A DNA stretch of 64,000 nucleotides from Chrysomallon squamiferum. Taxonomy: Eukaryota > Animalia > Mollusca. The stretch lies in the NCBI GenBank assembly GCA_012295275.1, contig CM022671.1:25110001-25174000 (forward strand), written 5' to 3'. The notes beneath the pieces are model-generated. The model did not search any database, was not told the origin of the DNA, and saw only the letters and a program-made list of their open reading frames with translations. Position numbers and translations under genes: made by a program. Positions 38-12,000 of the stretch are shown one piece after another. How positions within the stretch are numbered: position 1 is the stretch's first letter; every line of letters begins with the position of its first letter.

Positions 38-3000
38 GTGATTCGCAGTTTACGCCAGTGTAGCCGCTCTCACAAACACACGTGTATTGTTCGGCGTTGT
101 CGTAGCAGGTCCCGTGAATGCATGGATTGGAGTTACAGGCTAATGAATAAAAAGGAAATTTTGAAGATTTTTTTTGTTTTTGTTTCTCTCTCTGGGTGTG
201 TGTATGCGTGTATATGTGTGTATGTGTCTGTGTGTGTATGTGTGTACATATTTACTTCTCCAGATTTCTCCTTATTGAAATAGTAAGCCATAACATTTAA
301 GTAACTGTTTATCTTTCAAAGAATATTAATTTAGAAAAAACCCAACTATTTTACACTTTTGTGAAAAATGATAAACATTAAAATATATAATAACTCTTCC
401 TTTCCATTGCTGATCTTACTCACGGGTGATTTCTGAAAACAAAAAAGAAAGTAAAATAAAAAATTACAACAAATATTATGAATGAAAAAAAATTGATAAA
501 TATATCTAGAATTATTATCATTTTATTTTAAACACAGCAGGAAATAAAAACATACTGAGGATAAATAAGGCATTTGTATTTTCTTTTAGAATCTCTCTCT
601 GTGGTTGTTTTTTTATTTAATAAACCTTAACGAATATATTAACTAGTTTACAGCATTTTAGAATTTGAAGGAATACATAAAACATTAATAGATAGATAGA
701 GAGAGAGAGAGAGAGAGAGAGAGAGAGAGAGAGAGAGAGAGAGAGAGAGAGAGAGAGAGAGAGAGAGAGAGAGAGAGAGAGAGAGAGAGAGAGAGAGAGG
801 GTCAGATCTAACTAATACTGTACATACTTATTTCGCAGTTGGTTCCAGTATAGCCAGCGTTACAACTACAGATGTACTGATCTGCGTTGTCATAACACAC
901 TCCGTTTACACAAGGGTTTGAACTGCACACTGAAAACGAAAGAACATTATAAACTTCTTTCTGTCGTTCTGTCTTTCTTTCTTTCTTTTTTTATCCTTTT
1001 ATTTTGTACAAATTAAATTAAAGACATAATTAAAAACTGTAGATAAAAACTAAAAATATTATTTATTTAAAAATTAAATTTAAAATGCTGTACATATAGT
1101 GATGGCAATCTTTTAACAACAGTAATAATAATATTTATATAAATAATAATAATAATAATAATAATAATAATAATAATAATAATGCATTATAAATTAACTA
1201 AACTTAACATTTTGTTTTTGATATGTTTACAATGTATGTAAATAATACTTACAGCCGGTTTCTGAAAATGAAAATGAAAAAAGTAGCATAAGTAATCGTG
1301 TATATTTTCATTAATCAGTAAAGGTGAATAGTAAATTAAATATAATAACATATTTATATTTGATTCTTTATGCTATAAGACAAATTATCGCGTCTGAAAA
1401 CCATAAAAAAGAATTATCAGTGATTATAACAGTTCATACATTTTAATTAGCAATATGAAAGAGAGTGCGATGGAGATCGAGAGAGAGACATATATACAGA
1501 CAGGGGCAGAGACAGAGAGAGAGAGACAGAGAGAGAGACAGCGAGAGAAGAAGAAGAAGACGAATGAAGGAAGGAAGGAAGGAAGGAAGGGAAGGAAAAT
1601 GATAAAAATGATGTCACAGAGACAAAGAGTAAAGTTTTATAAATACAAAGACTCACTGGTGCAGGTTTTGCCGTCTCCAGTGTAACCAGAGTTACACGTG
1701 CAGTAATAACTACCAAACGTGTTCGTGCAAACCGCGTTACTGTCACAGTCGTTTGTCATACTACATTCGTCCACGTCTGAAATTTCAAAACGAATTCATT
1801 TGTTCGTTTAACAATAATGTTAATAATAATAATAATAATAATAATAATAATAGCAACAGTAATAAAATAACATATAACAAAACAAAAACAACAACAACAA
1901 CAACAACAACAACAACAACAACAACAACAATAATAATAATAATAATAATAGTATATGTTTTATAGTATTATTCATGCAGCAGTCTCATTCATCATTTTTA
2001 ATGATTAATAAAAGATTATTAAAACATCCAGAACGAACGGTAAGGGAGATAACTCTTTCAAACCTAATGCAAAAATAATTCTAAAGATAATTTTCACATA
2101 TATTTATCAGTGAAACTAACCGGAACTGCACGTGGTTCCTTGGTAGCCAGACGTACAGGAACAAGCAAATCCTCCTCCTTGTATATTTATGCACAGTCCT
2201 CCGTTCTGACAGGGGTTTGAATCACAAGCAACTGTCAAAAGAACCTCAATTTTAAAACGACCTGATTCATAACAATTATCTTATACAGTACATGTTTTTC
2301 TCTGGGGGCGCATATATCTTTTTACCGTTATTTCATAATTCTAAAATAATATTTGATTATTCCAGTAAGAAAACCGAAATATTAATTAATTTTCAGTATC
2401 AAACCGAAAACTCGTTATGTATGTAGAAAGATATTAATCGATTAATAATACTCACGGCTGTTTTCTGAAACATAATATAAAAATAAAATGTATAAATAAA
2501 CATATATATAAATAATATATACACACATACATATATCAACAGATACGCATATACACATACTTAAATCCTCACGCACATGGGACAAATGTACGCCGTCAAT
2601 AACACATTATAAAAAGAAATACTAATGCATAAAGAATTTATTTATCTATTCATTCTTTTATTTATTTATTTATTTATTTATTTATTAACGTTTCCATGAA
2701 CTTTATTAATACATCTTCCTACTACTTTGAACAAATCGTCCCGAACCAAACAAGAAAAGATGGTCTGAAAATAAATAAACAAAGCGAAAGACGTACGGGT
2801 GAAGAGAAAGACAAAGATAAAACAATAAATACAAAGACTCACTGGTGCAGGTTTTGCCGTCTCCAGTGTAACCAGAGTTACACGTGCAGTAATAACTACC
2901 AAACGTGTTCGTGCAAACCGCGTTACTGTCACAGTCGTTTGTCATACTACATTCGTCCACGTCTGAAATTTCAAAACGAATTCATTTGTTCGTTTAACAA

Positions 3001-9000: not shown

Positions 9001-12000
9001 ATTACGTTTCGATACATTACATTACAAAATTGTACTTACCACAGTTGACATTGACTGGCAGGTCACAGAATTTGGTTTCAGTGTTGGCCTGGGCCGGGTT
9101 GAAGTAAAACTGCTGTCCGTTGATCACCGGACAGTTTAGTGCCCTCCATGTCCCACTGGTGCAGATGTAAAATGACTGACAGCGAGTAGGATACGCCATT
9201 TTGGCACCTTCAGTACTGCAGCTGGTACCTGAATCAAAGAGTCGTATTGTTATAGAGTTGTATCAGAATAAATGGTTCAGACCTAAAATGCTGTTGAGTG
9301 CTCGAATGGAAATTAAATTAAGTAAATTCTGAACACCTACCTTCAGTCGATCCTCCGGTACCTCCACTTCCTCCTGTTCCAGCTGAGAAAACAAAATAAT
9401 TTTTAAAAGAAAATATAGAACGAACATTTCAATTTTAGAAGAAGAGAGAGAGAGAGAGAGAGAGAGAGAGAGAGAGAGAGAGAGAGAGAGAGAGAGAGAG
9501 AGAGAGAGAGAGAGAGAGAGAGAGAGAGAGAGAGAGAGAGAGAGAGAGAGACGGAAATAAAATTTATGTTGTGACTGATAAGTTAGAGTATAAACGTAGA
9601 CTCTTCTATAATCAAATTCAATGTGCCGATAAATTTTAACTTTTATACAGAGGTTCATTTTTTAATTTTTTTATAATCTAAACGTTGATAGTTCTATATT
9701 TATCTTAAAACTTAGCATATTGCGACATCCCTAGATTCAAAACGTAGATTTTTCTATAAATAATTATAAAGGTGTCGACACCTACTCTTTTCAGACAACA
9801 AACAGGTACTCCTGTAATAAAACGTTAGCAGGTAAGAACTAAGAAATGGCTGTACTTACCTGTTTCACAGCGCGAACCTGTGTACGATCCGACACACTGA
9901 CAGGTAAAACTGCTCCCGTCAGACGTGCACACACCTCCGTTCAGACAGGGACTCGAGCTGCAAGCTGTCGTTTAAAAGCACGATGAGAATGAACGAAGGA
10001 AAGAATGAATGAATGAATGATGGAGGAATGAATGAATGATGGAGGAATGAATTAATGATGGAGGAATGAATTAATGAATGAATGAGGAAGAAAGGAAGGA
10101 ATGAGGAATGAATGAATGAATGAGGGATGAATGAATGAAGGCAGGAAGGAAGGAAGGTTTGGAGAAATGATTGAATGAATGAATGATAAAGAAAGAACGA
10201 TTTGGAGAAATGAAGGAATGAGTGAATGCTAAAGAAAGAACGATTTGGAGGAATGAACGAGCAGTGGAATGAAGAATGGACGAATGAATTAGGAATGACG
10301 AGATAGAGGAAAGAAGGAATATTTGTTTAGCGACACCTTATCACATTTTTATATTAGCATTTAACAAGAAGTCAAACATGCCGCATTTTATTATCAGAGT
10401 TTGAAACGGTAATTATTTTTACTGACCATTAGAAAAATACATTTTTTGTTTTACAAAAAAACAGATAGTTGTGCTTTCGATGTAGCTGTCTTAGAGCAGT
10501 AGCTGGATCGAGAAATTGCCCAAAATATGAATGACTGAGTTTAATGTTACTGTAAGTCTGAGATCTCTCTGCTGTTCGGTTATACAATTTTCTGACTATG
10601 TACAAAGAAATCGAGGTATTAAAAAGATAAATAAAACATTTAGACTGAAACAAGTAACTGTACAGATTACATCAACCGAAGGTTTGTATTAAACAGAGAA
10701 CTAACAATTGTTATGAAAGAAAATTTAAAATGTACTTACGATTCGTTGGATCTGAAAATTAAAATAAAGAGATATATATATATATATATATATATGTGTA
10801 TGTATATATATACATGAATGTGACATGTTTTATTAAAAACAAAATCCGTTATTATGGCTTCTGTGGTAACTGTTCAACCTTCTCTGATGTTTTATTATTA
10901 TTAATATTATTATTATTATTATTATTATTATTATTATTATTATTATTATTATTTTGAAATTAAATTTAGTTGACGTTTAATTAACTAAATTTAATGTAAA
11001 ATTAATAATAATAATAATAATAATAATAATAATAATAATAATAATAATAAATAAATAAATAAATAAATAAATAAATAAAAATAATAATATATAACTGAAT
11101 ACGAACATTATGTCACAAAAATACAACTACTTCATTTTCAACGATGTTTAACCATTCCTATCATCGAAGTTTTTTCACTAACTGGCTTATCCCATTTTTT
11201 TTTTTTAATTTTCTCTACCAACATACGTCTCTCTTCACTCACCATAACATATCTTAAAATCAACTCTTTACTCTTCTGTTGCCTGTTGTTAGTTTGAATA
11301 CATTATACAGCCTGACGTACACCACTTGTTTTTGTAATCTTGAAATCTTTAATCGTCATTTATATAACACGAGATAAAAAAAAAAAAAAAAAAAAAGAGA
11401 GAGAGAGACCAGCCAGTTCGTGAAAACAGTTACGTTTTTAATGTACGTAAAATCAAAACGGAATTCAGTGGGCACGGTCTAGAACGGGATAATCATGGAT
11501 TTGAAAACAACTCACCGGATGACTGCGCACACGGTGGATTTTTGGCTTTGACGGCGTCGATGTAGTTGAGTGCGTTCAGCTCGGGGTCCCACCACGTGCC
11601 CGGGGCCACGTCTTTCTTGACCCACACGCCGTACGAGCACTGCCAAAATACCGTGCAGTCCGAGTCGTCGCCGACGTGCGCGTTATCTGGCGAGCACGAC
11701 GACGTGGATGACGTGCCAATAGGAGCCGCATCACTGTAGAAGAAGGCTGTGAAAAATATTTTTTTTAAAAAGCGTAAAGTCTCGGATATAAAATAATAAT
11801 AATAATAATAATAATAATAATAATAATAATAATAATAATAATAATAATAATGATAATAATAATAACAGTGATGATGATAATAATAAAAAGAATACTAATA
11901 ATAATAATAACAATAATGATAATAGTAATAACAGTGATGATGATAATAAAAATAAGAAGAAGAAGAAGAAGAAGAAGAAAATGATACTGTTTAAGAAATC

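What the first reader, a model, noticed from the sequence alone, without database searches (positions are those of the whole stretch)
424..10751. Nine 6-15 nt microexons encode the inter-domain linkers of a chitin-binding/EGF protein
Seen: microexons at 10740-10751 (12 nt), 8763-8777 (15), 6827-6838 (12), 5803-5817 (15), 4928-4933 (6), 3687-3695 (9), 2456-2464 (9), 1253-1261 (9) and 424-432 (9). All nine have a YAG acceptor, a perfect GTRAGT donor, a length divisible by 3 and no stop. Several domain exons have weaker donors (GTTAGT, GTACAC, GTAAAA). Each microexon directly precedes an ordinary EGF exon, and none precedes a Ca-binding EGF exon, whose DV[D/N]E linker must pack tightly. Inference: every internal exon is symmetric phase 1-1, so domains and 2-5 residue hinges can each be skipped independently. 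That could tune the length and flexibility of a chitin-anchored matrix protein combinatorially, outside the known neural microexon programme. Automated annotation would likely miss these exons.
Basis: partly seen in the sequence, partly recalled or inferred. Interest (0 to 1): 0.8.

Follow-up and report, generated by a model that had tools for sequence, protein, structure and literature searches.

The report
Microexons spell EGF-domain linkers
Nine tiny DNA segments (6-15 bases) with textbook splice signals sit in front of nine of the ten ordinary EGF exons of a predicted secreted chitin-binding protein; they supply the residues that bring the domain spacing to its normal length, so they are likely always spliced in rather than used as optional hinges.

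Summary
Observation confirmed. All nine segments lie on the minus strand with YAG acceptor, GTRAGT donor and 3n length. They precede 9 of 10 ordinary EGF exons and 0 of 7 other exons (p=4e-4); shuffled introns give 0.23 such sites. Two are copies, so eight are independent. The gene encodes a signal peptide, three CBM14 domains, ten EGF and three calcium-binding EGF domains, all in phase-1 exons, and runs off the window.

The combinatorial-hinge reading is weak. With the microexons the Cys6-to-Cys1 spacing is 5-8 residues; without them 2-4. In 1146 tandem EGF pairs from 120 proteins, 1119 have 5-8, 17 have 4, none 2-3. T-rich tracts and missing UGC motifs match constitutive, not neural, microexons. 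Calcium-binding EGF exons already carry their linker. No transcript was available, so inclusion is inferred. No orthologue and no paper on this layout was found. The scan's notes show no earlier report of it; one unchecked note describes a small-exon array elsewhere in this genome. Verdict: real, likely constitutive; new variant of a known kind.

The parts
12703..12733 (-). first coding exon (ATG, start of predicted signal peptide), ends in phase 1
   Evidence: hydrophobic N-terminus read by eye, no predictor run
11516..11746 (-). CBD_A exon, CBM14 domain with 4 Cys
   Evidence: Pfam PF01607 28.3 bits; Cys count
10740..10751 (-). microexon m1, 12 nt
9860..9964 (-). EGF1 exon
   Evidence: PF00008
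9341..9382 (-). 42-nt Gly/Ser/Thr-rich spacer exon
9040..9228 (-). CBD_B exon, CBM14 domain with 6 Cys
   Evidence: PF01607 31.5 bits
8763..8777 (-). microexon m2, 15 nt
8396..8500 (-). EGF2 exon
7851..7997 (-). CBD_C exon, CBM14 domain with 5 Cys
   Evidence: PF01607 25.4 bits
7177..7281 (-). EGF3 exon, 7 Cys, no microexon upstream
6827..6838 (-). microexon m3, 12 nt
6445..6552 (-). EGF4 exon
5803..5817 (-). microexon m4, 15 nt
   Evidence: synonymous variant in a second haplotype
5380..5484 (-). EGF5 exon
4928..4933 (-). microexon m5, 6 nt
4491..4601 (-). EGF6 exon
4079..4198 (-). calcium-binding EGF exon cb1, carries its own linker residues
   Evidence: PF07645 37.5 bits, cut-off 27
3687..3695 (-). 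microexon m6, 9 nt
3352..3462 (-). EGF7 exon
2843..2962 (-). calcium-binding EGF exon cb2
   Evidence: near copy of cb1
2456..2464 (-). microexon m7, 9 nt, identical to m6
2121..2231 (-). EGF8 exon, identical to EGF7
1657..1776 (-). calcium-binding EGF exon cb3
1253..1261 (-). microexon m8, 9 nt
828..929 (-). EGF9 exon
424..432 (-). microexon m9, 9 nt
38..139 (-). EGF10 exon; the gene continues beyond the window end
   Evidence: donor GTATGT follows

Best explanation
The nine segments are likely constitutive microexons, each supplying the 2-5 linker residues missing from an EGF exon that begins at or one residue before its first cysteine, so that the predicted secreted chitin-binding protein keeps the normal 5-8 residue spacing between domains. 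Shown: the splice signals, the open frame, the placement and the spacing arithmetic. Inferred: an EGF module here is written as two exons (linker microexon plus cysteine core, together 111-120 nt, the size of the unsplit 120-nt calcium-binding EGF exons); the split probably arose by an extra phase-1 intron just before Cys1 and was multiplied by tandem duplication of exon blocks; the spliceosome would include them through a T-rich tract right before the acceptor, a near-perfect intronic donor (+3 to +8) that makes up for a non-consensus exon end, and short flanking introns (224-775 nt). The protein would bind chitin through its N-terminal CBM14 domains and extend an EGF rod in a cuticle, gut-lining or shell-type matrix (inferred from the domains only).
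For: Spacing with microexons 7, 8, 6, 6, 6, 5, 6; without 3, 3, 4, 3, 3, 2, 3. Comparison: 1146 pairs in 120 proteins, 4: 17, 5: 80, 6: 1015, 7: 18, 8: 6, 9-12: 10, none at 2-3; PMC2725086 (passages) gives 5 for cEGF and 6 for hEGF. Length compensation: EGF6 and EGF7 are 89% identical yet have a 6-nt and a 9-nt microexon, and both junctions come to 6, because the upstream exons leave 2 and 1 residues after Cys6. Four microexons (m1, m2, m4, m9) end in C and so create a Pro before Cys1, the third commonest residue there (184 of 1501). Pyrimidines in the 17 nt before the acceptor: 13.4 vs 10.7 (p=0.004); intron-side donor match 7.3 vs 6.0 (p=0.001); TGC within 45 nt upstream in only 2 of 9, at -5 and -27. 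Human constitutive microexons show strong sites and T directly upstream (PMC4317164, passages); fly neural ones show weak 3' sites and UGC (PMC8797185, passages). In 15 isoform comparisons that differ inside an EGF array, 14 gain or lose whole modules and 1 differs by one linker residue. A haplotype about 10% diverged has one listed change across m4 and its splice sites, and it is synonymous.
Against: No transcript, cDNA or orthologous protein was seen. The comparison set was found with an EGF profile, is rich in Notch, crumbs and SNED1, holds related proteins and was cut by my own pattern, so short linkers may be under-counted. A 2-residue linker exists between the atypical EGF1 and EGF2 of JAG1 (PMC2725086, passages), so a skipped form is not impossible, and m1 and m2 follow chitin-binding domains, where the EGF spacing rule does not apply. 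EGF3 does without a microexon. AG-exclusion zones are long (median 93 vs 48 nt, p=0.10), a feature also of neural microexons. In human data the share of constitutive microexons falls sharply with size, and these are 6-15 nt. The haplotype signal is not significant (1 seen, 3.3 expected, p=0.16; 12 of 52 rows were not shown). Splice-feature rules come from human and fly.
Confidence: 0.7

Rival explanations
1. The microexons are regulated cassettes: skipping one would switch an EGF pair from a normal 5-8 residue joint to a tight 2-4 residue, JAG1-like kink, tuning the rod by tissue.
For: All are 3n and the frame is open with or without them. Linker microexons that adjust domain position are known (PTPdelta meB, PMC4423211, passages). 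A 2-residue EGF linker can fold. One sea-urchin isoform pair differs by a single linker residue. Long AG-exclusion zones.
Against: 0 of 1146 comparison pairs at 2-3 residues; strong pyrimidine tracts and no UGC signature; symmetry is shared by every exon of the gene, so it says nothing special about the microexons; microexon lengths fit the neighbours to give about 6.
Confidence: 0.12
2. Microexons are included whenever their module is, but whole modules (EGF exon plus one adjacent microexon) are skipped in some transcripts, so rod length varies while linkers stay normal. This is an extension of the best explanation, not its opposite; the confidence is for module skipping being the main use of the layout.
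For: 14 of 15 isoform differences inside EGF arrays of sea urchin, sea cucumber, periwinkle and octopus genes are whole modules; all exons here are 1-1 symmetric.
Against: Those are gene models of unrelated genes whose exons I could not see; near-identical repeats can produce false skipping isoforms; no RNA for this gene.
Confidence: 0.13
3. They are not exons: chance or decayed splice-like sites, and the mRNA joins the domain exons directly.
For: The frame is open without them; no RNA shows them.
Against: 9 seen against 0.23 expected, maximum 3 in 500 shuffles; placement 9 of 10 against 0 of 7; all 3n; kept across EGF exons only 49-67% identical whose introns share little beyond low-complexity matches.
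Confidence: 0.05

Closest known systems
Constitutive domain-internal microexons (plant AP2 and invertase 9-nt phase-1 exons, PMC8831610, passages; human constitutive micro-exons, PMC4317164, passages)
   Same: 6-15 nt, phase 1, strong flanking signals, supply residues a domain needs, often missed by annotation.
   Different: Those are single conserved exons inside a domain; here one sits at nearly every joint of a repeat array, with differing sequences and lengths fitted to the neighbours.
LAR-RPTP mini-exon B (PTPdelta meB, four residues between Ig2 and Ig3; PMC4423211, passages)
   Same: A microexon whose product is the linker between two extracellular domains, where length matters more than sequence.
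   Different: meB is a single, alternatively spliced, neuronal insert; here there are nine, and skipping is not supported.
Class 1-1 EGF exon modules and tandem-EGF invertebrate proteins (fibropellin-like, Notch-like models; phase rule recalled, proteins)
   Same: One EGF core per phase 1-1 exon, arrays grown by exon duplication, spacing of about 6.
   Different: The linker is normally in the same exon as the core (recalled; true of the three cb exons here). Here it is split off for the ordinary EGFs, and the N-terminus is CBM14: none of 99 CBM14 hits held an EGF by my pattern.
Schistosoma micro-exon genes (MEGs; search listings, features recalled)
   Same: Secreted protein, several symmetric microexons.
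   Different: MEGs are built mostly of microexons and are known for skipping; here microexons are 96 of about 2160 coding nt and alternate with folded-domain exons.
Neural eMIC/Srrm-dependent microexons (PMC8797185, passages)
   Same: Very short exons, short introns, long AG-exclusion zones.
   Different: No UGC enrichment, strong rather than weak acceptors and intronic donors, and a matrix-type gene.

Membership tests
Microexon (spliceosomal) | 3-27 nt segment between an AG acceptor and a GT donor, in frame with flanking exons | tested here: met
Microexon (spliceosomal) | present in spliced transcripts | tested here: inconclusive
   no RNA holder listed; three RNA runs do not cover the exons laid
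Constitutive microexon | strong splice sites and T-rich tract 5-20 nt upstream | tested here: met
   (own simple scores, 9 vs 18 exons; whole-site donor score equal, intron side higher) against PMC4317164
Constitutive microexon | inclusion at 90% or more across tissues | not testable with these tools
   no RNA reads on the gene
Neural eMIC/Srrm microexon programme | UGC near the acceptor with weak 3' splice site | tested here: not met
   TGC in 2 of 9 (-5, -27); pyrimidine tract stronger than in other exons
Neural eMIC/Srrm microexon programme | long AG-exclusion zone | tested here: inconclusive
   median 93 vs 48 nt, p=0.10
Neural eMIC/Srrm microexon programme | neural-specific inclusion dependent on the eMIC domain | not testable with these tools
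   needs tissue RNA or knock-down
Schistosoma MEG-type gene | most of the coding sequence in symmetric microexons (recalled) | tested here: not met
   96 of about 2160 coding nt
Schistosoma MEG-type gene | extensive microexon skipping (recalled) | not testable with these tools
   no RNA
CBM14 (peritrophin-A) protein | Pfam PF01607 above cut-off | tested here: met
   28.3, 31.5, 25.4 bits, cut-off 22.1; only CBD_B has all 6 Cys
CBM14 (peritrophin-A) protein | binds chitin | not testable with these tools
   inferred from family
Calcium-binding EGF | PF07645 above cut-off with D-x-(N/D)-E before Cys1 | tested here: met
   cb1 37.5 bits, cut-off 27; cb2 and cb3 are near copies, not scanned

The most novel reading that the evidence does not exclude
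A non-neural microexon programme in an invertebrate matrix protein: each joint of a chitin-anchored EGF rod can be switched by splicing between a normal six-residue linker and a tight two- to four-residue kink, giving hundreds of rod shapes from one gene, with look-alike linker microexons hidden in other invertebrate EGF arrays (the periwinkle model XP_070205242 hints at one).
Probability: 0.12. Interest if true: 0.75.

Novelty: new variant of a known kind. Interest (0 to 1): 0.42.

Why it matters
If constitutive, this is a clean case of a repeat module written as two exons, with the linker on its own microexon and its length fitted to the neighbours. It shows how exon shuffling can join modules whose exon borders do not leave enough spacer, and it predicts a simple annotation test: EGF arrays modelled with 2-4 residue spacing probably hide a microexon. 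It also offers nine parallel non-neural microexons in one gene for studying how such exons are recognised in a probable mollusc. If instead they are regulated, it would be a splicing-tuned mechanical matrix protein, which would be far more surprising.

Tried and rejected
No genome is held, so the gene's 3' end and paralogues are unseen. Sequencing runs: no RNA holder listed; three RNA runs laid on 4480-5960 touched only low-complexity intron pieces and no exon, which is no evidence on expression; only 1481 of about 12,700 nt of the gene were laid. Orthologue searches: CBD_A against longer proteins, 0 of 34 candidates; CBD_B against 1.84 billion representatives, 99 hits, at most 47% identical, 0 with an EGF by my pattern, 16 of 99 scanned with Pfam showed no EGF family; EGF profile, 120 listed of 6226 hits, none with PF01607 listed. 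Atlas gave no answer. Four exon peptides were absent from the one spreadsheet supplement of a vent-snail proteome paper (PMC11871041; 1 of 4 readable files searched, cells over 400 characters are cut, one further file too large), so neither species nor tissue was established. Rfam at gathering score: 0 hits in the window. A hidden microexon before EGF3: the best-looking site (7466-7447) gives 20, 17 or 14 nt, not 3n; not accepted. Whether the m6/m7 duplication is real or an assembly artefact could not be told from contig depths. Literature searches without a paper on this layout; one search gave nothing relevant on linker classes. Paywalled papers are not covered.
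Full report
Setting. The window is AT-rich animal DNA (30% GC) with short introns and many simple repeats. No whole genome is held. Unchecked notes of the scan call the organism a snail; I did not confirm this.

Observation. All nine segments are on the minus strand at the stated places, with CAG or TAG before and GTAAGT or GTGAGT after. 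I built a 27-exon model from an ATG at 12733 to the window end: signal-peptide exon, CBM14, m1, EGF, 42-nt Gly-rich spacer, CBM14, m2, EGF, CBM14, EGF, then m-EGF pairs with three calcium-binding EGF exons among them. Pfam confirmed the 13 of 16 domain exons scanned; the other three are near copies. Every exon after the first enters in phase 1 and is 3n; the frame is open with (720 aa) and without (688 aa) the microexons.

Chance. In the 17 introns between the larger exons (10,444 nt) there are 9 candidates of 3n and at most 15 nt; 500 dinucleotide shuffles give a mean of 0.23 and a maximum of 3; the antisense strand gives 0. They lie before 9 of 10 ordinary EGF exons and 0 of 7 other exons (Fisher p=4e-4). 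No 3n candidate of this size occurs elsewhere in the window (one more hit there is the tail of the CBD_B exon). m6 and m7 are copies in a 97% identical duplication, which leaves eight independent cases. EGF3 has none.

What they encode. The ordinary EGF exons start 0 or 1 full codon before Cys1, the calcium-binding ones 3 codons before. Microexon plus EGF exon sums to 111-120 nt; the calcium-binding exons are 120 nt. With microexons the seven EGF-to-EGF joints have 7, 8, 6, 6, 6, 5 and 6 residues between Cys6 and Cys1; without, 3, 3, 4, 3, 3, 2 and 3 (the first value read). The three joints into calcium-binding EGFs have 6 without any microexon. For comparison I counted 1146 adjacent pairs (spacing up to 12) in the 120 listed of 6226 hits: 17 at 4, 80 at 5, 1015 at 6, 18 at 7, 6 at 8, 10 at 9-12, none at 2-3. 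PMC2725086 (passages) gives 5 or 6 as normal and 2 for the atypical, kinked JAG1 EGF1-2 pair. The set is biased towards canonical arrays and its members are related, so I take it as strong but not final. Lengths fit the neighbours: EGF6 and EGF7 are 89% identical but take a 6-nt and a 9-nt microexon, both reaching 6. Four microexons create a Pro before Cys1, which is common there (184 of 1501).

Splice signals. By a simple U1-match count of my own, microexon donors are stronger on the intron side (7.3 vs 6.0 of 8, p=0.001), weaker on the exon side (0.7 vs 1.8 of 3, p=0.01) and equal overall (p=0.69); 1 of 9 has -1 G against 12 of 18. Pyrimidine tracts are stronger (13.4 vs 10.7 of 17, p=0.004), TGC occurs upstream in 2 of 9, and AG-exclusion zones are longer but not significantly (93 vs 48, p=0.10). 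Human constitutive micro-exons have strong sites and T directly upstream, though the constitutive share drops with size (PMC4317164, passages). Fly neural microexons have weak 3' sites, UGC and long AG-exclusion zones (PMC8797185, passages). The balance favours constitutive use.

Reads. No RNA run was listed as holding the gene. On 4480-5960, three RNA runs covered no exon, which says nothing on expression. Run X1 behaves as DNA and shows two haplotypes over 5586-5943, one with 36 other letters and 13 gap letters in 349 nt. Among the 40 of 52 rows shown, the only change between 5795 and 5824 is in m4 and is synonymous (Ala), and the one in EGF5 is synonymous too. Expected 3.3, p=0.16: in line with constraint, not proof.

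Relatives. No orthologue was found. As an analogy I looked up clusters of 10 of the EGF hits and compared isoform models in 6 of them, 20 comparisons. Five differ outside the EGF array. Of the 15 inside it, 14 gain or lose whole modules of 36 or more residues and 1 (sea urchin X2) loses one linker residue. The periwinkle pair differs by an EGF plus three trailing residues that end in Pro, which would fit a 9-nt microexon, and that gene, one unnamed Logan protein and echinoderm genes have variable linkers of 4-9; I could not see their exons, so this is a lead only.

Mechanism. Shown: signals, frame, placement, spacing. Inferred: constitutive inclusion (0.7); origin by an extra phase-1 intron before Cys1 followed by block duplication. 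For it: common border positions, the length sums, shared ATC ends of m1 and m2, 6 of 9 identical bases in m6 and m8, which both follow a calcium-binding exon, and the recent duplication. Fresh exonisation of spacers behind short-bordered modules is not excluded. The protein is predicted to be secreted, to bind chitin and to project an EGF rod; CBM14 and EGF domains are common in lophotrochozoan hard-part proteomes (PMC13425148 and PMC11871041, passages), but tissue and role are unknown and a membrane anchor beyond the window is possible. Rivals: regulated hinges (0.12), module-level skipping as the main use (0.13), not exons (0.05).

Comparison and novelty. It works like constitutive domain-completing microexons (PMC8831610, passages) and encodes what PTPdelta meB encodes, a length-setting linker (PMC4423211, passages), but is repeated along an array. 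It fails the tests for schistosome MEGs and for the neural programme's UGC signature. Five searches found no paper on linker microexons in EGF arrays; the library lacks most subscription journals, and unread supplements of mollusc proteome papers may list this protein. I rate it a new variant of a known kind, interest 0.42; 0.75 if skipping proves regulated.

Noticed in passing
window 16423-20641 (+): Head-to-head neighbour, 3.7 kb from the start codon: a four-exon gene for a secreted-type protein with two CBM14 domains, whose inter-domain linker also has its own 48-nt phase-1 exon (19847-19894).
   Followed up: partly
window 7997-7177 (-): CBD_C has 5 Cys and the adjoining EGF3 has 7; this is the only ordinary EGF without a microexon. 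The two odd cysteines might pair across the short joint. Untested.
   Followed up: partly
window 7466-7447 (-): Microexon-like site before EGF3 (pyrimidine tract, tandem AG acceptors, GTATGT donor) giving 20, 17 or 14 nt, one base off frame: a decayed exon, an assembly slip or chance.
   Followed up: partly
window 11746-11516 (-): CBD_A keeps 4 Cys; the fourth and fifth of the CBM14 pattern are both lost, as expected if they formed one disulfide (pairing recalled).
   Followed up: no
window 53300-55460 (-): Five intronic C/D-box snoRNA-like copies in a RanBP1-domain gene (53300-53374, 53867-53941, 54343-54418, 54834-54914, 55385-55458); all below Rfam gathering score, best SNORD43 30.8 bits E=0.00045 and snoZ17 33 bits.
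   Followed up: partly
window 36801-38042 (+): Intronless 413-codon frame with an HSF DNA-binding domain (PF00447), possibly a retrocopy or HSF-Y/HSF5-like gene.
   Followed up: partly
window 5586-5943, run X1: Two haplotypes about 10% apart in intron sequence, a sign of high heterozygosity.
   Followed up: partly
window 24600-64000: Other neighbours: fructosamine kinase (PF03881) on the minus strand near 40-43.5 kb; a likely WSC-domain sulfotransferase, SETD6 and TRMT2A recognised by eye from recall, with no Pfam hit for the single exons scanned.
   Followed up: partly
EGF exons 9964-38 (-): Several EGFs carry the C-x-S-x-P-C O-glucose motif and EGF5 an O-fucose motif (consensus recalled, not tested).
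   Followed up: no
P0171/P0224 (Littorina saxatilis), P0188 (Logan), P0257 (sea urchin): Invertebrate EGF arrays with variable 4-9 residue linkers; candidates for the same linker-microexon layout.
   Followed up: partly
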